DNA of 18,320 nucleotides, taken from the IMG/VR virus record IMGVR_UViG_2728369556_000002; one strand, 5' to 3'. Position 1 is the stretch's first letter, and the number at the start of each line of letters is the position of its first letter. A program made the position numbers and the translations under genes. This DNA comes from a virus. Taxonomy: Duplodnaviria; Heunggongvirae; Uroviricota; Caudoviricetes. This document shows positions 5,763 through 17,555 of the stretch, piece by piece. Below the pieces are notes generated by a model. It saw only the letters and a program-made list of their open reading frames with translations. It had not been told where the DNA came from and made no database searches.

Positions 5763-6205
5763 TTACTTAAGACCTCATCAATAGCCTGATTCATTCGCTG
5801 TATGGCAACCTGCGCCGCCAGCTCCTCTGTCGTATCGAAAGCCGGGCGAATGAATGGATGCGCGGGCATGTTTATCGTTCCCAGCTCCACAAAGCGCCAG
5901 TAAAATGCATTTCGGGGATCGCTGGCTTTCATGCTGTTATCACTGTTTCCGGTTCGCAGGTTCCGTCCGCGAATGTGGACACCCGAGATAATTTCCCCCC
6001 GACGCTTTGAACGCTGAGTGAGAACAACCACATTTTTCTTCAGTTTCCCGGTTCGCTCCGGCGCACGTTCAACAACTGCATCCCGCATAACTTCAGCACC
6101 GGCACGGGTGGCATCGCGCAGAACCTTATTGTTTTCTGCCCTGCTGAGCGTCTCCAAATCCCGTGCAATATCCGCCAGGCCGGAAAAATCAAGACTGAAA
6201 TCCAT
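5759..6205 (-). CDS. HK97 gp10-family tail completion protein (gpZ position)
   Basis: Contains the motif NAFYWRFVELGT...PFIRPA typical of the HK97 gp10 family. Likely start is the ATG at 6205 overlapping the upstream stop. Confidence 0.75.
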   Translation of the reverse strand: MDFSLDFSGLADIARDLETLSRAENNKVLRDATRAGAEVMRDAVVERAPERTGKLKKNVVVLTQRSKRRGEIISGVHIRGRNLRTGNSDNSMKASDPRNAFYWRFVELGTINMPAHPFIRPAFDTTEELAAQVAIQRMNQAIDEVLSK

Positions 6206-6543
6206 CACACATTCCCCTTCAGGCTGCAGAGTATTTCAAGCCGGGTAGCGCGTGCATCCGGTATTGGTGGACCTTCTATACCCAGAATGGCCCCTTTAAA
6301 TGCACCGGTCAGCACTTTCAGACGTGAAGTCGCTGTCACATCGCGCCGGAATCTCATCCAGACTCTGACCGTAGCCTGAGCGGTTTCTGCTCCGCCTGAG
6401 ATTATCTCCCTCCCGCTGATACCCTTAACTTCTGCCCATACGGTAGCTCCCTCCGTCACCGTCTCCACCGGATGCCCTGACGGAGAGCGGGCGGTGGTGA
6501 CATTCAGAATAATTACGCGATCACGTAATCTGCCCGCCTGCAT
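6205..6543 (-). CDS. head closure / head-tail adaptor protein
   Basis: 112-aa ORF with a strong AGGAGGAG ribosome-binding site. Size, position and the ...WAEV...R..R pattern fit the head-tail joining family. Confidence 0.75.
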   Translation of the reverse strand: MQAGRLRDRVIILNVTTARSPSGHPVETVTEGATVWAEVKGISGREIISGGAETAQATVRVWMRFRRDVTATSRLKVLTGAFKGAILGIEGPPIPDARATRLEILCSLKGNV

Positions 6544-10142: not shown

Positions 10143-11900
10143 TCACAGAATTAACAGGTCCTCATCAGGATCAAGCGTGGACAGAAAGTCATTCACGCCC
10201 CCGCCATTTACCAGAAAGCGGCTCATGGCCGTAAAAAGCGCAACAGGGCCGTCGATTTTGGCTTCAGGCGTGGATTTATTCGGGAAGATGTTGTCGTTTT
10301 TGTCCGGTTTTACCGTAACGTTAGACATCATCCAGTTCATGACCGGATGATTGCTGTGATGGAAACGCCCGGCATAAACCAGTGATTCCGTTTCCTTCAT
10401 GGCCTCTGACAGATTGCGGACCGTCTGCGGAACCTCCACCAGCGGTATCCCTTCTTCAGCCAGTGCCAGGCTGAACTGCATTGCGCTCCACGGGTCAAAT
10501 CCCAGTTCCCTGAGGTTTTCACCGCCAATCCATTCCAGTAAGTCACTTTTTATCTGAGCATGATCGATAACATCACCATCCGTCAGGATGAGCTTATCCA
10601 TCTCCGCCCACTTCCGGTAAAGTTCTGCCTGCTGCCGCGAGCATCGCTCCAGCCGTCCTTCCGGAAGCCAGAATTTAAAATCAGCATGAACATGTCCGTT
10701 ATCGGTTCGCCAGAGTTTTGCCGCCGCACAGATATCAATCTTATGAGCAAGGTCGACGCCGACCCACATGGGATATGTTTTCAGCTCATGTTGTGGAGCA
10801 ATGTATTCGCACTTCTCCCACTTAATCATATCCATCCAGGCAGATTCGGCAGTGACCCACACATTCATGTGTTTGGTAAAAAAATTCACCCGCGCAGAGA
10901 CCTGCTCCTTCGCTTTTTTCGCCAGACGACGCAGATCATCCCAGCGTTTACAGATGCCCAGGCCAGGATTCGCTTTCTGCCAGACCGTTTCATCAAACGG
11001 ATCATCTCCCTCATCGAGCGTGTAAATGATCGCAAAGTAGGAGTCGTCTTTTACCGCGCCCTCCACGTCGCTGTTATAGCCTCGCAATACCTTAATGGCG
11101 TAATCGCGCTGCTCGTAGCAAATCCCTTCCTTGTTAAAGCCAGCCGTGGTGATGCCAAATAACAGAGACTGCAGACGGGCACCGGTTGCCGTTTCCAGAA
11201 CGTCCCACACGTCACGGGTTTTATGAGCATGCAGCTCATCAATAATGGCGCAGTGGATGTTCAGACCGTCCAGGTTGTTTGCATCCGAGGAAAGCGGTTC
11301 AAATTTTGATGCGCTCTGCTCCTGGTAAATCGCCAGCTTGTTGAAATCAAACAACCGCCCGAGTGTCGACCGGGCTTTTCTGACCATATTTTTGGCGTCT
11401 TCAAACACAATTCTGGCCTGGTCACGCGTGGTTGCGGCTGAATACACCTCAGCCCCGCCTTCACCATCTGCCCCCGTCATATACAGACCGATACCCGATG
11501 ACAGGGTTGATTTTGCGTTTTTACGGGCAACTTCGTTGTATGCTGTCCGGAACCGGCGCACCATCACCGGGCGTCCACTGCCATCGCTGCGCATGACAAC
11601 TTCCCCGGTTTCTTCATTCACCAGCGGAATGACAAAACCAAAAATATTAATGAGGATAAACACATGCCAGTCCATCAACTCAATGGGCTGACCTGCCAGC
11701 GCCCCTTTCACATGGGGTACAAATTTGTAGAAATTAAGGATGTGCTGTGCACGGGGTTCACTGAAATAAATCCCCCGCTCTTCGCCGTACTTCAGATCAT
11801 CAAGAAAACGCTGGCAGGCCAGACGGACAAATTCGCCAGCAACAATTTCTCCTGCAACAACACGTTCGGCGTAGCGGATCCCGTCAGCCACTTTTGCCAT
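10143..11900 (-). CDS. terminase large subunit
   Basis: 585-aa ORF whose ATG overlaps the stop of the small terminase C-terminal frame (TGATGG). Sequence character matches the terminase ATPase/nuclease family. Confidence 0.95.
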   Translation of the reverse strand: MAKVADGIRYAERVVAGEIVAGEFVRLACQRFLDDLKYGEERGIYFSEPRAQHILNFYKFVPHVKGALAGQPIELMDWHVFILINIFGFVIPLVNEETGEVVMRSDGSGRPVMVRRFRTAYNEVARKNAKSTLSSGIGLYMTGADGEGGAEVYSAATTRDQARIVFEDAKNMVRKARSTLGRLFDFNKLAIYQEQSASKFEPLSSDANNLDGLNIHCAIIDELHAHKTRDVWDVLETATGARLQSLLFGITTAGFNKEGICYEQRDYAIKVLRGYNSDVEGAVKDDSYFAIIYTLDEGDDPFDETVWQKANPGLGICKRWDDLRRLAKKAKEQVSARVNFFTKHMNVWVTAESAWMDMIKWEKCEYIAPQHELKTYPMWVGVDLAHKIDICAAAKLWRTDNGHVHADFKFWLPEGRLERCSRQQAELYRKWAEMDKLILTDGDVIDHAQIKSDLLEWIGGENLRELGFDPWSAMQFSLALAEEGIPLVEVPQTVRNLSEAMKETESLVYAGRFHHSNHPVMNWMMSNVTVKPDKNDNIFPNKSTPEAKIDGPVALFTAMSRFLVNGGGVNDFLSTLDPDEDLLIL

Positions 11901-11958: not shown

Positions 11959-12381
11959 TTACTTTCGCCCGGCTTGCCGGTGACATACCAAACTCTGCAA
12001 GCATCGCCCGAATCCGCTTCCAGGCATCAGCTTCATCGCAGCAGCCGGGTGTGCCTTGATCAGCACATCGCCATTCTGCGTTTCCGTGCGGTAGGTATAA
12101 CCCTCAACATCGAGTATTTCGCAGTGATGCCGGTATTCGGTGTAGGCTTCCACCAGTAACTCGAGCGCACGTGCATCGAGCTGAGAAATGATCCCTTCCG
12201 CATTCAGCTCTTCCGCCATTCGCCTGAACCAGTACTTCCCCTGCGCCCCTAAATGTTGCGGAATTTTAGGGAGACCTTTTTCATCCTTTTTAGCGGTTTT
12301 TTTGGAGTCTTTAACTGGCCGCTTTGAGGGGTTACCTCGTATCAAATGCAGGCGTGGCGGGGTTTTCGGGGGTCCAGACAT
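11959..12381 (-). CDS. terminase small subunit (P27 family), apparently frameshifted near the 3' end
   Basis: N-terminus MSGPPKTPPRLHLIRGNPSKRP... is typical of the P27 family. The expected C-terminus (DAWKRIRAMLAEFGMSPASRAKV...KARD-stop, overlapping the large terminase ATG) is encoded in a different frame from about 12010 to 11900. The span 12381..11900 is 482 nt, not a multiple of 3. Confidence 0.8.
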   Translation of the reverse strand: MSGPPKTPPRLHLIRGNPSKRPVKDSKKTAKKDEKGLPKIPQHLGAQGKYWFRRMAEELNAEGIISQLDARALELLVEAYTEYRHHCEILDVEGYTYRTETQNGDVLIKAHPAAAMKLMPGSGFGRCLQSLVCHRQAGRK

Positions 12382-12527
12382 AATCGATTTTACCTATCAA
12401 TCATTTAATCACATTCCAAAAAAAAGTTTTCGAACCTGCGGCGATGCGAGGAAAGGTCAGGCGGCGGTACTGAGCAGCAGGGTTGCAGAGATTTGACCTG
12501 CCCCTCCCCTACAGATGGGAACTGTTA

Positions 12528-12878
12528 TCAATTGAGGCGTTCGCGCGCTGTTTTTGCTTTATGACAGGGCCAGCACAGACTCTGCAGGTTACTGTCTGCA
12601 TCCGTGCCACCATGAGCTTTCGGAATGATGTGGTCCACAGTTCTGGCTTCAACGGCTCTCCCATTGCGCAGGCAGTTCTGACACAGATGATTATCACGCT
12701 TCAGTATGCGCGCACGTATGGCATCCCATTTCGAGCCATAGCCACGCTGGTGGCGGCTCAGTCCGCGTTGATGCTGTACCCATCCTTCGCCACGATGTTT
12801 ATCGCAGTAACCAGAACTGTCTGTGGTTGTACCTGCACATCCACGCTTACGGCAGGCGCGTGGGATTCGTGGGGGCAT
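12528..12878 (-). CDS. HNH endonuclease (terminase-associated)
   Basis: ORF track 12528..12977. Preferred start is the ATG at 12878 (MPPRIPRACRK...) with GGAG upstream. Contains Cys pairs and the motif VDHIIPKAHGG...N...LCWPCH. Confidence 0.85.
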   Translation of the reverse strand: MPPRIPRACRKRGCAGTTTDSSGYCDKHRGEGWVQHQRGLSRHQRGYGSKWDAIRARILKRDNHLCQNCLRNGRAVEARTVDHIIPKAHGGTDADSNLQSLCWPCHKAKTARERLN

Positions 12879-12998
12879 ATGTACTCCAATGAAGAAGCCA
12901 CCGACATAGCCTCCTCCATTCATAGTGAAACTATTTTCATCTACCCAGTAATGAATTCTTTGTAGAGTTGTGATCAATACAACTCACTAATGGAGAGG

Positions 12999-13020
12999 CT
13001 TGTCCAACACGTTGGACAAG
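12999..13020. repeat. inverted repeat, 10-bp arms with 2-bp spacer
   Basis: CTTGTCCAAC ac GTTGGACAAG; the arms are exact reverse complements. Confidence 0.8.
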
Positions 13021-13100
13021 TTTCCTGTTTGATTTACTGGACACTATAGAAGGACAGAATGCCTTCATCACTCGAATAACATCAATTAAGGAGGTTCAAC

Positions 13101-13223
13101 ATGTTTCATTCCACAAATCATCAGGCTGTAATTATGGCTGCATCAGCTTGTGCCACAGACCTTTTCCGCTTCACTTTGAGCCTGATTCATTTCTACCTGA
13201 CCGGCTCGCCTCTATCTTTTTAA
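13101..13223 (+). CDS. hypothetical 40-aa protein
   Basis: Near-consensus AAGGAGG ribosome-binding site 6 nt upstream of the ATG. Encodes MFHSTNHQAVIMAASACATDLFRFTLSLIHFYLTGSPLSF. A palindrome lies about 80 nt upstream. Below the ORF-track cutoff. Confidence 0.3.
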   Translation: MFHSTNHQAVIMAASACATDLFRFTLSLIHFYLTGSPLSF

Positions 13224-13403
13224 TCCCCGCTTTATCCAAATTGCATTGCCAGAATGCCGACAACAGACTGACATTCAAATCCTGACTACCTCCAATAGGC
13301 TGAGCATCCACCTATATAGTTTTAATTTTCATCAATCCATTTAACTATCGTTTAATTGTTGTCACATAGGATTCTGCCGTTTTTAACAATGCAGGATAAT
13401 AAG

Positions 13404-13697
13404 ATGAAAAAAATGTTGTTTTCTGCCGCTCTGGCAATGCTTATTACAGGATGTGCTCAACAGACGTTTACTGTTGGAAACAAACCGACAGCAGTAACAC
13501 CAAAGGAAACCATCACCCATCATTTCTTCGTTTCGGGAATTGGACAGGAGAAAACTGTTGATGCAGCCAAAATTTGTGGCGGCGCAGAAAATGTTGTTAA
13601 AACAGAAACCCAGCAAACATTCGTAAATGGATTTCTCGGTTTTATTACTTTAGGCATTTATACTCCACTGGAAGCGCGTGTGTATTGCTCACAATAA
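13404..13697 (+). CDS. bor: Bor outer-membrane lipoprotein (serum-resistance, Iss-like)
   Basis: MKKMLFSAALAMLITGCAQQTFTV... has a lipobox and is nearly collinear with lambda Bor as I recall it. On the opposite strand to the late genes, as in lambda. Confidence 0.92.
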   Translation: MKKMLFSAALAMLITGCAQQTFTVGNKPTAVTPKETITHHFFVSGIGQEKTVDAAKICGGAENVVKTETQQTFVNGFLGFITLGIYTPLEARVYCSQ

Positions 13698-13728
13698 TTG
13701 CATGAGTTGCCCATCGATATGGGCAGCT

Positions 13729-14190
13729 CTATCTGCACTGCTCATTAATATACTTCTGGGTTCCTTCCAGTTGTTTTTGCATTGTGATCAGCCTCTCTCT
13801 GAGGGTGAAATAATCCCGTTCAGCGGTGTCTGCCAGTCGGGGGCTGGTTGCATTATCCACGCCGGAGGCGGTGGTGGCTTCACGCACTGACTGACAGACT
13901 GCTTTGATGTGCAACCGACGACGACCAGCGGCAACATCAGCGCGCAGAGTTTCATTTTCAGCTTTCGCATTGGCTAATTCTCTCGAGTACTTTGCATCGA
14001 GTGCAGCAACATCACGCTGACGCTGCTGCATGTCAGCGATAGTGGCGATCGCCTGCTTCAGCTCACTGACTTTTTTATCACGCTGTTCTTTGTAGGCGAT
14101 GGCGTTATCACGGTAATGATTGACCGCCCACGACAGGCAGACGATGATGCAGATAACCAAAGCATAAATAATCGCGGCGACTCTGCTCAC
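13729..14190 (-). CDS. Rz: i-spanin Rz
   Basis: Strong match to lambda Rz (...[25 protein letters not shown]...KYINEQCR). Probable GTG start at 14190 overlapping the endolysin stop (GTGA); the ORF track lists an upstream TTG at 14205. Confidence 0.92.
13788..13970 (-). CDS. Rz1: o-spanin Rz1, embedded in the +1 frame of Rz
   Basis: 60-aa ORF with lipobox (VVGC) and a proline run ([12 protein letters not shown]), as in lambda Rz1, lying entirely within Rz. Confidence 0.88.
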
Positions 14191-14720
14191 TGCTCTATCC
14201 CCCAACAGGCTAATGCGCTTTCCTGGTCACGACGAATAACCTGTCCATAGCAGTTATTTGAACGTATGCGGCAATCGCGCCCACCATCTTTTATCCACCA
14301 GCGAATCGCCTCGCATGCGCCCTTACGATCACCGGCATTCAGCCGCTTATAAAACGTCGACGGGAAACACTTACCGGGGCCAATGTTATAGGGACAGAAT
14401 GACGCTATACCCGCTTTTTGTGGTTCGGTCAGTAGTACTTTAATATTGCGCTCCACCCATGCCAGCGCCTTATCACGCTCAATGGCGTTGACCTGGTCGC
14501 ATTTTTCCTTCGACAGTTTCATACCGGGAAAAACGGGTTTTCCATCCACCATCGTGGCACCCCGACAGATGGTCCAGATGCCGGACCCATCGCGGTATGC
14601 CGTTGTGTGGTTACCTTCTTTTTCATCCAGAAACTGGTCGAGAATATCAGGCGCGGGCGCACCGACGGCAATCAGTGCCAGAACGGCAGCCGACAGGCCG
14701 TATCTGATTTTTGCGTTCAT
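14187..14720 (-). CDS. SAR-type endolysin (phage lysozyme)
   Basis: 177-aa ORF with an N-terminal weakly hydrophobic Ala/Gly-rich segment ([18 protein letters not shown]) followed by a lysozyme-like body, resembling signal-arrest-release endolysins such as phage 21 R. Confidence 0.88.
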
Positions 14721-16466: not shown

Positions 16467-16640
16467 AAAATCAATATAAACAGCCCCTCCGGAGAGGGGC
16501 TGGAGAGTGGCGCTATGTGCCATTGCATGGTGCCGGGTGCCTCCCGGTGAATTCAGTACCAGCACCTGAATCCGCGATTATCCCATATACCTACTCGCTG
16601 ATTACCCCTCCGCACAGGGGGATTCACCATGCGAAATTTT
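16467..16640 (-). ncRNA. candidate structured small RNA, copy A
   Basis: Minus strand shows promoter-like boxes (TTGTCT, 18 nt, TGTTAAAAA), a 5' arm GCATGGTG, internal hairpins, a 3' arm CACCATGC, then terminator AGCCCCTC-TCCG-GAGGGGCT with a U-rich tail. Paralogous to copy B. Confidence 0.3.
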
Positions 16641-16935
16641 TTAACAAACTTCCCGCCGGCCAGACAATAATCGCCAGCCTGAATTATGAGCAACGTGGCA
16701 TTTTACGGGAAAACTGTTTTCTGCAGTAAAAAGGCCCGCCGGAGCGAGCCTGGAAGGATAGCGGTCATGTGATGCCGGTTTCCCGGTAACTCAGCATCGG
16801 TATCTGAGTCAACGTTTTCTCTACTGGGTCATTTCCGATACGTTCCGCCTTCCGGCAGACTTTCATCACGTCAGAAAATATAGCACCCTGAGTAACAGGA
16901 CAGTACTCAGAATTCAGGAAACTGTGACACATCCT

Positions 16936-17110
16936 GCACAGAAAAGCCCCTCCGGAGAGGGGCTGAAGTATAGCCTAATTTCTGTCTGTCGCATGGTGCC
17001 AGGGGCCTCCCGGTAAATTCAGCCTGTCTACTGAATTTGCATGTTCTCTGGATCATACACTTTGCCAGATGCCCCGCCGCTGAGGGGGATTCACCATGCG
17101 ATGTAATTTT
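16936..17110 (-). ncRNA. candidate structured small RNA, copy B
   Basis: Same block architecture as copy A, with identical terminator hairpin and promoter-like boxes but divergent loops and linkers. Confidence 0.3.
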
Positions 17111-17302
17111 TAACAAATTCTCCGGCAGCCAGACAATCATCAAGCTGTGGAATTGTGAGGTATTTAAAAATTTCAACGGGTAACTGATACCCTGCTAATC
17201 GCCTGATGCTTTCTTTTTCAGCAACGGGAAAGCAACAACCACACACCCGCCACCAAAACACCATCAGACAGCACCGACATTATCCGGCTGCTGAAGTCCA
17301 CC

Positions 17303-17479: not shown

Positions 17480-17555
17480 TGGTGGCCCTTGCTGGATTTG
17501 AACCAGCGACCTGGCGATTATGAGTCGCTCGCTCTCACCACTGAGCTAAAGGGCC
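17480..17555 (-). tRNA. tRNA with anticodon CAU, closest to tRNA-Ile2 (lysidine type); tRNA-Met not excluded
   Basis: 76-nt minus-strand sequence folds by hand into a cloverleaf: 7-bp acceptor stem GGCCCTT/AAGGGCC, D-arm GCTC..GAGC, anticodon loop CTCATAA, T-arm GCTGG TTCAAAT CCAGC, encoded 3' CCA. Closely resembles E. coli ileX as I recall it. Confidence 0.88.

What the first reader, a model, noticed from the sequence alone, without database searches (positions are those of the whole stretch)
12999..13223. Palindromic operator-like site followed by a 40-codon ORF with a near-perfect ribosome-binding site, next to bor
A 22-bp inverted repeat (CTTGTCCAAC-ac-GTTGGACAAG, 12999-13020) lies about 80 nt upstream of a small plus-strand ORF (13101..13223) that has an AAGGAGG site at ideal spacing. 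A consensus-grade ribosome-binding site is rarely accidental. The palindrome has the size and symmetry of a dimeric regulator binding site. The region is on the lysogen-expressed strand (same as bor) and lies in what is usually the right end of the packaged genome.
Basis: seen in the sequence. Interest (0 to 1): 0.5.

Follow-up and report, generated by a model that had tools for sequence, protein, structure and literature searches.

The report
Prophage cassette with lytic-phage RNA-polymerase promoters
The palindrome and the small gene are real, but they belong to a conserved prophage cassette carrying promoters for T7-like and SP6/K1E-like phage RNA polymerases that the prophage lacks, so the 40-codon gene is probably switched on only when such a lytic phage infects the cell.

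Summary
There is a perfect 10+10 bp palindrome at 12999-13020, AAGGAGG at 13088-13094, and a 40-codon ORF at 13101-13223.

The "operator" interpretation is not supported. The palindrome is the repeated sense-strand hairpin motif of SP6-like (Molineuxvirinae) lytic phages. The conserved block after it, 13032-13054, matches a promoter of coliphage K1E at 23 of 23 positions (36.9 bits). Just before the palindrome, 12975-12997 is a T7-group promoter (22.4 bits). No other site in the window scores above 1.3 bits, and no sigma-70 promoter is detected.

The temperate phages that carry the cassette have no single-subunit RNA polymerase gene (SfIV checked). The cassette is unannotated in 631 of 5426 complete E. 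coli genomes.

Klebsiella prophages carry the same layout with K11-type and Kp7-type promoters, so promoter type matches the host's lytic phages.

The ORF's Shine-Dalgarno sequence and ATG are nearly invariant. Its C-terminal 15 codons change almost only synonymously, although they overlap the dead 3' stub of an o-spanin gene.

Best reading: a silent cassette transcribed by the RNA polymerase of a superinfecting Autographiviridae phage, producing a small helical peptide. The transcription trigger is well supported. The peptide's anti-phage role is inferred.

Closest precedent: Chen and Schneider's (2006) tandem T7-like promoter islands.

The parts
12975..12997 (+). T7-group (Studiervirinae-type) phage RNA polymerase promoter-like site, positions -17 to +6, CAATACAACTCACTAATGGAGAG. 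Predicted +1 is G at 12992.
   Evidence: A PWM built from the 17 annotated T7 promoters gives 22.4 bits. Real T7 promoters score 22.0-38.7 in leave-one-out, and the next best site in the window scores 1.3. The SfIV variant CAATACGACTCACTAATGGGGAG scores 26.2. Each deviation from consensus also occurs in a natural T7 promoter (phiOL, phi1.1A, phi1.5/1.6, phi2.5). BLAST matches fall on promoters of T7-group phages.
12999..13020 (+). Perfect 10+10 bp palindrome. It forms the core of a 15-bp stem-loop (12992-13026) in + sense RNA and is homologous to the repeated hairpin motif of SP6-like phages.
   Evidence: + sense -18.3 kcal/mol, z -4.4; - sense -13.8; 85% of cells paired, 13 cells with double changes, 0 of 500 shuffles reach the covariation score. 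The same motif lies 10-15 nt upstream of promoters in SP6, KpnP_VR702, Kp7 and K1E.
13032..13054 (+). K1E/SP6-group (Molineuxvirinae) phage RNA polymerase promoter, positions -17 to +6, ATTTACTGGACACTATAGAAGGA. Predicted +1 is G at 13049.
   Evidence: It is identical at 23 of 23 positions to the K1E promoter at K1E position 13925. The K1E PWM gives 36.9 bits, against 26.8-37.1 for real K1E promoters. It is the only match in the window to the SP6 consensus within 3 mismatches, with 0.00 expected. The next best site on the combined SP6/KpnP_VR702 PWM scores 0.4 bits. E. coli Vectrevirus genomes match it at 6-9 places each.
13049..13100 (+). 52-nt leader of the K1E-type transcript, with a small 5' stem (13049-13066) and an unstructured ribosome-binding region.
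   Evidence: Fold. pi is 0.039. It aligns weakly with the leader of K1E gp18 and SP6 gp20.
13088..13094 (+). Shine-Dalgarno sequence AAGGAGG, 6 nt before the ATG.
   Evidence: SD-to-ATG has pi 0.014, the lowest in the region. The Klebsiella lineage keeps AAAGGAG and two further lineages keep GGAGG.
13101..13223 (+). 40-codon gene with a variable N-terminal half and the conserved C-terminal motif LSLIHFYLTGSPLSF. Predicted to be a single alpha-helix.
   Evidence: 11 synonymous variable sites against 1 non-synonymous in the last 15 codons; AF2 helix over residues 2-34, pLDDT 83.5; distant homologs of 37-38 aa with the same cassette.
13171..13311 (-). Dead 3' stub of a LysC-type o-spanin gene (stop codon 13171-13173). 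It overlaps the last 17 codons of the + ORF.
   Evidence: SfIV gp53 is a full LysC (PF23793, 56 bits). The window stub matches profile positions 40-68 weakly. 123 loci keep only the stub and at least 6 have the full gene.

Best explanation
The palindrome, the RBS and the ORF are parts of one conserved cassette at the lysis-to-packaging junction of lambdoid/HK97-like temperate phages. It points against the late operon.

Order of parts on the + strand:
- a T7-group promoter (+1 at 12992);
- a stem-loop that starts at the 5' end of that transcript;
- a consensus K1E/SP6-group promoter (+1 at 13049);
- a 52-nt leader with AAGGAGG;
- a 40-codon gene.

Shown:
- The promoter identities, by PWM scores within the range of real promoters and by 23/23 identity to a K1E promoter.
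- Homology of the hairpin-plus-promoter unit to SP6-like lytic phages.
- Absence of a single-subunit RNA polymerase gene in a complete carrier phage (SfIV).
- Absence of a detectable sigma-70 promoter.
- Promoter types that match the host's lytic phages in E. coli, Shigella and Klebsiella lineages.
- Purifying selection on the SD, the ATG and the C-terminal peptide.

Inferred:
- The gene is silent in the lysogen.
- It is transcribed, very strongly and within minutes, only when a superinfecting Autographiviridae phage (T7-like, or K1E/K1-5/SP6-like) makes its own RNA polymerase.
- The hairpin acts at the RNA level. It would be a 5' stabilising stem for the T7-type transcript and a processing or insulating element for read-through, as it presumably is in the lytic phages.
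- The small helical, partly hydrophobic peptide then acts against the infection (exclusion or abortive infection). This last step is the least certain.

Origin: the hairpin, promoter, leader and start codon look captured from the gp17/gp18 (K1E) or gp19/gp20 (SP6) intergenic region. They were fused to the antisense of the o-spanin 3' end.
For: Promoters:
- PWM scans give 22.4 bits (T7-type) and 28.3 bits (combined SP6/KpnP_VR702 PWM) or 36.9 bits (K1E PWM), against at most 1.3 bits for any other window site.
- In 904 kb of prophage loci, all hits of at least 14 bits except one lie in this cassette.
- There is an exact K1E promoter match, and Vectrevirus phages match at 6-9 places per genome.

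Hairpin:
- The hairpin-plus-promoter unit occurs in KpnP_VR702, SP6, K1E and Kp7.
- The two prophage hairpin variants (CCAAC/GTTGG and CTCAC/GTGAG) equal the SP6-type and K1E-type motifs.

Host matching:
- Klebsiella prophages carry K11-type promoters (28.8 and 23.5 bits) together with Kp7-type promoters (28-33 bits).
- Further lineages, L164 and L166, keep the hairpin, a Kp7-like promoter, an SD and the ORF.

Carrier phage and host transcription:
- SfIV has 54 genes and no RNA polymerase gene.
- No sigma-70 promoter is found.

Selection:
- SD/ATG pi is 0.014 and leader pi is 0.039, against 0.146 in the flank between the HNH start and the T7-type promoter.
- C-terminal substitutions fall almost only at third codon positions, and all of them are non-synonymous in the LysC frame.
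- A duplicated second copy has lost the hairpin pairing, the SD and the ATG, while the copy next to the ORF is intact.
- The o-spanin stub is retained while lysis cassettes and morons were swapped around it.

Prevalence: 631 of 5426 complete E. coli genomes.

Peptide: predicted single helix. The Klebsiella form has a 19-aa segment with Kyte-Doolittle hydropathy 1.83.
Against: - No transcript, promoter-activity or phenotype data exist. Promoter function is inferred from sequence alone.
- The T7-type site is at the bottom of the natural range (22.4 bits). It falls to 17.2 bits in the O157 lineage and is absent in L164 and L166.
- The hairpin is broken in some Klebsiella loci (L098, L102).
- The N-terminal half of the peptide is about as variable as the flanks (pi 0.110), and almost all changes are non-synonymous.
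- The E. coli peptide is not clearly a transmembrane segment (best 19-aa hydropathy 0.9-1.4).
- Homolog searches required parts of the ORF, which inflates its apparent conservation.
- Host matching of promoters could also arise neutrally, by gene conversion from superinfecting phages.
- T7-like phages degrade host DNA, which limits the time window for a chromosomal gene.
Confidence: 0.55

Rival explanations
1. Neutral relic. A fragment of an SP6-like lytic phage (hairpin, promoter, leader, first codons of the gp18/gp20 homolog) was inserted by illegitimate recombination next to the o-spanin gene. It has simply been carried along. The ORF is an accidental fusion with no function.
For: - There is clear homology to the lytic-phage intergenic unit, including a weak leader/start alignment.
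- The ORF's C-terminus is the antisense of LysC.
- The N-terminal half is unconstrained.
- Some promoters and hairpins have decayed.
- The sampling is biased towards intact ORFs.
Against: - The cassette persists across E. coli, Shigella, Klebsiella and other lineages, where the surrounding DNA has diverged by up to about 15% or been replaced outright.
- The second promoter stays near consensus for a different, host-appropriate polymerase in each lineage (K1E 36.9, SP6 32.1, Kp7 32.9 bits).
- An additional, unrelated T7- or K11-type promoter has been placed upstream.
- The SD and ATG are nearly invariant.
- C-terminal changes are nearly all synonymous in the + frame and non-synonymous in the LysC frame.
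- The redundant duplicate copy decays while the ORF-linked copy does not.
Confidence: 0.15
2. Hitch-hiking or satellite-like use of the invader's polymerase. The tandem promoters mimic a T7-group replication origin or expression signal. The infecting phage's machinery would then replicate or express prophage DNA for the prophage's own spread, as Chen and Schneider proposed for their islands. The small ORF would be secondary.
For: - In SP6, Kp7 and KpnP_VR702, two promoters follow the RNA polymerase gene, where T7 has its primary origin (established knowledge). Both carry the upstream hairpin in SP6 and KpnP_VR702, and the first one does in Kp7.
- The cassette lies about 500 bp from the cos/HNH/terminase region.
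- There is a precedent hypothesis in the literature (cited).
Against: - Transcription points away from the packaging genes and antisense to the lysis genes.
- No AT-rich origin-like stretch follows the promoters.
- The best-conserved elements are the SD, the ATG and the peptide's C-terminus, which replication would not need.
- T7-like capsids would not package cos DNA (established knowledge).
Confidence: 0.1
3. The functional product is the RNA. A polymerase-driven transcript antisense to the o-spanin/lysis cassette, or the act of head-on transcription itself, silences prophage late genes or interferes with the invader. The ORF would only load ribosomes and stabilise the RNA.
For: - In the ancestral arrangement the transcript runs straight into LysC, Rz, the endolysin gene and the holin gene in antisense.
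- No terminator follows the ORF.
- The N-terminal peptide sequence is free to vary.
Against: - In most loci the lysis cassette has been replaced and moved away by morons such as bor, yet the cassette and ORF persist.
- Codon-position-specific conservation of the C-terminus argues for a protein.
Confidence: 0.1
4. The palindrome is an operator bound by a dimeric prophage or host regulator that controls a lysogen-expressed small gene transcribed by host RNA polymerase.
For: - The palindrome has perfect dyad symmetry.
- The arms co-vary, as operator half-sites can.
- The genus-specific sequence of the motif in lytic phages would fit a sequence-specific binding protein.
Against: - No sigma-70 promoter lies near it.
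- The motif is native to lytic phages, occurs 6-9 times per genome and is always in the sense orientation. Its asymmetric copies show U.G-type asymmetry in 8 of 9 cases.
- The stem extends by G.U pairs in the + sense only.
- It is flanked by phage-polymerase promoters.
Confidence: 0.05

Closest known systems
Tandem T7-like promoter islands of enterobacteria (Chen and Schneider 2006, Nucleic Acids Res 34:1133). The paper is cited in PMC7545054 and PMC2784778 but is not held in the library, so its content is given from memory.
   Same: Two or three tandem promoters for T7-group polymerases sit in a bacterial chromosome. The element has no cognate RNA polymerase gene. The authors proposed that expression depends on an infecting T7-like phage.
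   Different: As I recall, those are 4-13 kb integrase-bearing islands flanked by direct repeats, proposed to be satellites, and their promoters drive 2-5 phage-related genes. Here the cassette is about 250 bp inside ordinary lambdoid/HK97-like prophages, at the lysis-packaging junction. It includes the SP6-group hairpin and drives a 37-40-codon gene. I could not check whether that paper also noted this locus.
Hairpin-plus-promoter units of SP6-like phages (Molineuxvirinae: SP6, K1E, K1-5, KpnP_VR702, Kp7)
   Same: The palindrome motif is the same, with a spacing of about 12 nt to the promoter. The promoter is identical or near-identical, the leader is about 50 nt, and there is a strong SD.
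   Different: In the lytic phages the unit serves the phage's own polymerase and full-length genes. Here it sits in a temperate phage without a polymerase, is preceded by a T7- or K11-type promoter, and is followed by a chimeric micro-ORF.
Engineered phage-triggered suicide cassette (Djordjevic et al. 1997, J Bacteriol 179:6741; from memory)
   Same: The logic is the same: a promoter that only the infecting phage can activate drives a lethal or interfering gene in the host.
   Different: That system is synthetic, works in Lactococcus, and uses a phage-inducible host-polymerase promoter with a restriction cassette. The present case would be a natural version using the invader's own polymerase. 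This is unproven.
Type I toxin-antitoxin and small membrane toxins used in phage exclusion (for example hok/sok against T4; established knowledge)
   Same: A very small helical, partly hydrophobic peptide with a strong RBS is kept silent until infection.
   Different: There is no antisense antitoxin RNA or promoter for one. Silence would come from the lack of any host promoter. The trigger would be direct transcription rather than decay of an antitoxin. The E. coli peptide is not clearly a transmembrane segment.
Lambdoid morons such as bor/iss (established knowledge)
   Same: An extra gene sits between late-operon modules on the strand opposite to late transcription. bor lies immediately downstream on the same strand.
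   Different: Morons carry their own host-type promoter and terminator and are expressed in the lysogen. This unit has only phage-polymerase promoters.

Membership tests
SP6/K1E-group (Molineuxvirinae) RNA polymerase promoter | A 23-bp match (-17 to +6) to the cognate consensus, within the score range of the phage's own promoters. | tested here: met
   13032-13054 is identical at 23/23 positions to the K1E promoter at K1E position 13925. It scores 36.9 bits on the K1E PWM, against 26.8-37.1 for real promoters.
SP6/K1E-group (Molineuxvirinae) RNA polymerase promoter | Initiation by the cognate polymerase at the predicted +1. | not testable with these tools
   Needs in vitro transcription or 5'-end mapping during infection.
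T7-group (Studiervirinae) RNA polymerase promoter | A 23-bp match to the consensus within the natural range. | tested here: inconclusive
   12975-12997 scores 22.4 bits, at the bottom of the T7 range of 22.0-38.7. The SfIV variant scores 26.2, the O157 variant 17.2, and the Klebsiella K11-type sites 23.5-28.8.
Operator of a dimeric transcription regulator | A dyad-symmetric site overlapping or adjoining a host-polymerase promoter. | tested here: not met
   The dyad is present, but there is no sigma-70-type promoter in 12300-13900.
Operator of a dimeric transcription regulator | A cognate DNA-binding protein. | not testable with these tools
   No candidate was identified. Needs EMSA or pull-down.
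Intrinsic (rho-independent) terminator | A GC-rich stem followed directly by a U run. | tested here: inconclusive
   The scan flags 12995-13024 with the tail CTGTTTGATT on the + strand. The U tract is interrupted, and it is absent in the lytic-phage and Klebsiella copies.
Structured RNA hairpin (sense strand) | Pairing kept through compensatory changes, with G.U pairs only on one strand. | tested here: met
   Pairs 14-23 (CG, UA, UG) and 15-22 (AU, CG). 0 of 500 shuffles reach the covariation score. The + sense fold is -18.3 kcal/mol against -13.8 for the - sense. Caveat: the two variants coincide with two lytic-phage motifs, so they may reflect transfer rather than in-place covariation.
Protein-coding small gene | A conserved start signal, a conserved frame and an excess of synonymous change. 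| tested here: met
   SD/ATG pi is 0.014. The frame and the stop are kept in all lineages despite a 2-3-codon length difference. The last 15 codons show 11 synonymous sites against 1 non-synonymous, and 4:1 outside the part required by the search. The test is partly affected by ascertainment bias.
Type I toxin-antitoxin system | A hydrophobic transmembrane toxin peptide. | tested here: inconclusive
   The best 19-aa hydropathy is 1.40 (window), 0.90 (SfIV) and 1.83 (Klebsiella). The peptide is predicted to be a single helix.
Type I toxin-antitoxin system | A cis- or trans-encoded antisense antitoxin RNA with its own promoter. | tested here: not met
   There is no promoter on either strand and no Rfam match.
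Chen-Schneider tandem T7-like promoter islands | Tandem T7-group promoters without a cognate polymerase gene. | tested here: met
Chen-Schneider tandem T7-like promoter islands | A 4-13 kb island with its own integrase and flanking direct repeats (from memory of the abstract). | tested here: not met
   The cassette lies between the lysis and packaging genes of full-size lambdoid prophages and of the 39.8-kb phage SfIV.
LysC/Rz1-type o-spanin (minus strand 13171-13311) | A full-length lipoprotein with a lipobox and the LysC domain. | tested here: not met
   Only the C-terminal about 45 codons remain, with no lipobox. SfIV gp53 is the intact form (56 bits).

The most novel reading that the evidence does not exclude
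This would be a natural promoter-mimicry immune sensor. Temperate phages of enterobacteria keep a silent micro-gene behind consensus promoters for the RNA polymerases of the lytic Autographiviridae that attack their host: T7/K11-type plus K1E/SP6/Kp7-type, swapped to match the host genus. The invader's own polymerase would then be both the sensor and the amplifier of an exclusion or abortive-infection peptide.
Probability: 0.35. Interest if true: 0.9.

Novelty: new variant of a known kind. Interest (0 to 1): 0.75.

Why it matters
About one in nine complete E. coli genomes carries this unannotated cassette. If the reading is right, it is a way of detecting infection that needs no sensor protein. 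The host element copies the invader's promoter, so the response is orthogonal to host transcription, extremely fast, and hard for the phage to evade without changing its own promoter-polymerase pair.

The reading gives direct, cheap experiments with standard phages (T7, K1E, K1-5, SP6) and commercial polymerases. It also bears on phage therapy with K1- and Klebsiella-specific Autographiviridae. Finally, it revives a 2006 computational proposal about T7-like promoters in bacterial chromosomes that, in the library searched here, appears only in reference lists.

Even if the peptide has no defence role, the locus documents repeated sequence flow from strictly lytic phages into temperate ones.

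Tried and rejected
- Rfam, at gathering and at permissive thresholds, found nothing relevant in the region.
- Two scans of the species-representative genome collection with ORF patterns found nothing, so spread outside E. coli and Klebsiella could not be sampled that way.
- Pfam and PHROGs gave no family for the peptide.
- The 125-aa gene downstream in Klebsiella prophages has the same length as the gene behind the homologous promoter in KpnP_VR702, but it is unrelated to it.
- The small genes behind the hairpin-promoter units after the RNA polymerase gene in K1E, Kp7 and SP6 are unrelated to the ORF.
- My first degenerate T7/T3 core pattern missed the upstream promoter. The PWM built from annotated promoters found it.
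- The T7 class II terminator heptamer occurs at chance level.
- A scan for the K1E promoter in other prophage contexts found only lytic phages and one truncated copy of this cassette.
- The Dobbins 2004 paper (SP6 genome) and the Chen and Schneider 2006 paper are not held in the library.
- Ten literature searches found no description of this cassette, its peptide, or a natural phage-polymerase-triggered defence.
- The idea that ORF conservation merely reflects the overlapping o-spanin gene was rejected. The changes are synonymous in the ORF frame and non-synonymous in the o-spanin frame, and the o-spanin is a dead stub in most loci.
Full report
**Context.** The window is the late region of a lambdoid/HK97-like prophage read in reverse.
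- Large terminase 10143-11900 (-), small terminase 11959-12381 (-), HNH endonuclease 12528-12878 (-).
- A 525-nt gap in which RefSeq annotates nothing.
- bor/iss 13405-13698 (+), Rz/Rz1 13729-14205 (-), endolysin 14187-14720 (-).

The finding lies in the gap.

**Observation.** The palindrome CTTGTCCAAC-ac-GTTGGACAAG is at 12999-13020, AAGGAGG at 13088-13094, and the ATG at 13101. The ORF 13101-13223 has 40 codons. Each feature is unique in the window but only mildly improbable on its own: 17% and 18% of dinucleotide shuffles contain one. Their reality rests on comparison with relatives.

**Relatives.** The 531-nt region is present at full length in 570 of 5426 complete E. coli genomes. The 95-nt core (12968-13062) is present in 631 genomes and is never annotated. 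One GenBank phage record calls the ORF a hypothetical protein. Another instead calls a minus-strand ORF. Diverged copies at 96%, 92% and 85% identity occur in O157:H7, in strain A42 and in Shigella phage SfIV. In SfIV there is no bor, and the region directly follows the o-spanin gene.

**The minus strand.** Positions 13171-13311 are the 3' stub of a LysC-type o-spanin gene. SfIV gp53 is the intact form (PF23793, 56 bits). The window keeps about 45 C-terminal codons and no lipobox. Of about 150 related loci, 123 have only the stub and at least 6 have the intact gene. The last 17 codons of the + ORF overlap this stub.

**The key lead.** A distant BLAST of the region hit lytic Klebsiella phages across 13002-13052. 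In KpnP_VR702, an SP6-like phage of the subfamily Molineuxvirinae, the sequence reads GTCCAACACGTTGGACAAG...ATTTAGGGGACACTATAGAAG followed by a strong RBS and a gene. That is the same hairpin followed by an SP6-type promoter.

I then built position weight matrices (PWMs):
- from the 17 promoters annotated in T7;
- from the 13 promoters annotated in K11;
- from pattern-defined promoter sets of SP6, KpnP_VR702, K1E and Kp7.

Results in the window:
- The T7 matrix gives 22.4 bits at 12975-12997. Real T7 promoters score 22.0-38.7, and the next best window site scores 1.3.
- The combined SP6/KpnP_VR702 matrix gives 28.3 bits and the K1E matrix 36.9 bits at 13032-13054. Real K1E promoters score 26.8-37.1, and the next best site on the combined SP6/KpnP_VR702 matrix scores 0.4.
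- The second site is identical at 23 of 23 positions to the K1E promoter at K1E position 13925.
- E. coli Vectrevirus genomes match it at 6-9 places each.
- In 904 kb of prophage loci, all hits of at least 14 bits but one lie in this cassette.

K1E and SP6 polymerases form separate specificity clusters (PMC11880802). The window carries the K1E type and SfIV carries the SP6 type (32-33 bits). SfIV also has a better T7-type site, 26.2 bits with a 14-nt exact run AATACGACTCACTA.

**The palindrome.** It is not a private feature of the prophage.
- SP6 has 9 copies, KpnP_VR702 has 9 and Kp7 has 6 of GTC(C/T)AAC-N2-GTTGGAC.
- K1E has 8 copies of GTCTCAC-N2-GTGAGAC.
- T7 and K11 have none.

Several copies sit 10-15 nt upstream of promoters. 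The two hairpin variants seen among prophages, CCAAC/GTTGG and CTCAC/GTGAG, are exactly these two motifs. The "compensatory" changes therefore keep the pairing, but they may reflect exchange with different lytic phages rather than covariation in place.

Evidence for action as sense-strand RNA:
- 8 of 9 asymmetric copies in the lytic phages are T..G, which is a U.G wobble only in the sense RNA.
- In the prophage the stem extends to 15 bp through G.U pairs in the + sense only (-18.3 against -13.8 kcal/mol).

The stem begins at +1 or +2 of the predicted T7-type transcript. This resembles the 5' stem of T7 gene 10 mRNA (established knowledge).

**Host matching.**
- Klebsiella prophages carry a 38-codon homolog, MLKISLLSTIVNHKITFAVIYFLLSLIHFYLTGSPLSF. 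It also lies between the lysis and packaging modules and opposes the late genes.
- Upstream of it are a K11-type promoter (28.8 and 23.5 bits) or a T7-like one (19.7 bits), then the hairpin, then a site scoring 28-33 bits on the matrix of Kp7, a Klebsiella Molineuxvirinae phage. Kp7's 12 promoters read TAATAGTGGCGAGTATAGAAS.
- Two more distant homologs, found with a profile search (37 and 38 aa), again have the hairpin, a Kp7-like promoter (20.8 and 27.2 bits), GGAGG and the ORF. They have no T7-type site.

The Molineuxvirinae-type unit is therefore the constant core, and the T7/K11-type promoter is an addition in some lineages.

**No polymerase, no host promoter.** The complete SfIV genome has 54 genes and no RNA polymerase gene. 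The promoter scan finds no sigma-70-type site in 12300-13900. The phage cannot use these promoters itself, and the host polymerase has no evident entry point.

**Is the ORF a gene?**
- SD-to-ATG is the least variable segment (pi 0.014) and the leader is next (0.039). The flank between the HNH start and the T7-type promoter has pi 0.146, and the o-spanin stub beyond the ORF has 0.125.
- Over all loci, the last 15 codons show 11 variable sites that are synonymous and one that is not (P to L). Because + third positions are minus-frame second positions, all of these changes alter the LysC frame.
- Outside the stretch that my searches required to be intact, the ratio is 4:1.
- The N-terminal half is about as variable as the flanks (pi 0.110), and almost all changes there are non-synonymous.
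- AF2 predicts one helix over residues 2-34 (pLDDT 83.5).
- Hydropathy reaches transmembrane level only in the Klebsiella form.
- A natural control: some loci have a tandem second copy in which hairpin pairing, the SD and the ATG have decayed, while the copy joined to the ORF is intact.

**Origin.** The leader, SD and start codon align weakly with those of K1E gp18, SP6 gp20 and KpnP_VR702 gene 21, all of which start MF. The unit was probably captured from that intergenic region and fused to the antisense of the o-spanin 3' end.

**Interpretation.** The best-supported mechanism has three steps.
1. The cassette is silent in the lysogen.
2. It is transcribed from 13049, and perhaps from 12992, by the RNA polymerase of a superinfecting K1E/SP6-like or T7-like phage.
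3. The 40-aa peptide is made at once from a consensus RBS.

That the peptide then interferes with the infection is inference. Rival readings are listed separately: a neutral relic, origin mimicry or hitch-hiking, an antisense RNA, and a true operator.

**Precedent.** The closest precedent is Chen and Schneider's tandem T7-like promoter islands (title seen). The paper is not held in the library, so its content is given from memory. Those islands differ in being small integrase-bearing elements. None of the ten literature searches found this cassette or its peptide.

Noticed in passing
L106 (SP6) 493, 6093, 6264, 7071, 8547, 9383, 14255, 17752, 30569; L111 (K1E) 632, 6803, 6987, 8005, 9573, 10750, 15901, 32586; L107; L162: SP6-like phages carry a genus-specific 16-bp palindrome, 6-9 times per genome, at syntenic positions and always in the sense orientation. 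Asymmetric copies are mostly U.G-compatible. The motif differs between SP6/Klebsiella phages (GTCCAAC..GTTGGAC) and K1E (GTCTCAC..GTGAGAC). I do not know its function; it may be an RNA processing or stability site, or a protein binding site.
   Followed up: partly
window 13171-13311 (-): This is the dead 3' stub of a LysC-type o-spanin gene. It is kept in most loci although the lysis cassette next to it has been replaced (here by lambda-type Rz/Rz1 plus bor).
   Followed up: yes
L034 10343-10630 (also L027, L033, L064, L074): There is a tandem second copy of the cassette together with a 5' fragment of the HNH gene. In this copy the hairpin no longer pairs, and the SD and ATG are lost.
   Followed up: partly
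L180 76-96 (-): In one IMG/VR contig the cassette is interrupted exactly after +4 of the K1E-type promoter, and unrelated DNA follows. This may be an insertion.
   Followed up: no
L002 and other O157-type loci; window-equivalent 13066-13068: In the O157 lineage the in-frame TAA in the leader is lost. An upstream ATG without an SD then opens a 54-codon frame (MPSSLESHQLRRFN + ORF).
   Followed up: no
L099 2786-2805: Klebsiella prophages have an additional palindrome, TTGTCTCTTATAAGAGACAA, upstream of the K11/T7-type promoter.
   Followed up: no
window 16472-16660 and 16936-17129 (-); 17480-17555 (-): Two copies of the sRNA family STnc100 (132 and 138 bits) and a tRNA-Met gene lie upstream of the lysis genes.
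   Followed up: no
L106 (SP6) 6150-6240; L109 (Kp7) 1260-1350: Between the two promoters that follow the RNA polymerase gene lies a stretch of short repeats (TAGGTAA-like in SP6, AGGTAT-like in Kp7). This is the position where T7 has its primary replication origin.
   Followed up: no
L098 and L100 3510-3887 (+): Some Klebsiella prophages have a 125-aa gene of unknown function (PHROG 12178) downstream of the micro-ORF on the same strand, in the place bor occupies here.
   Followed up: partly
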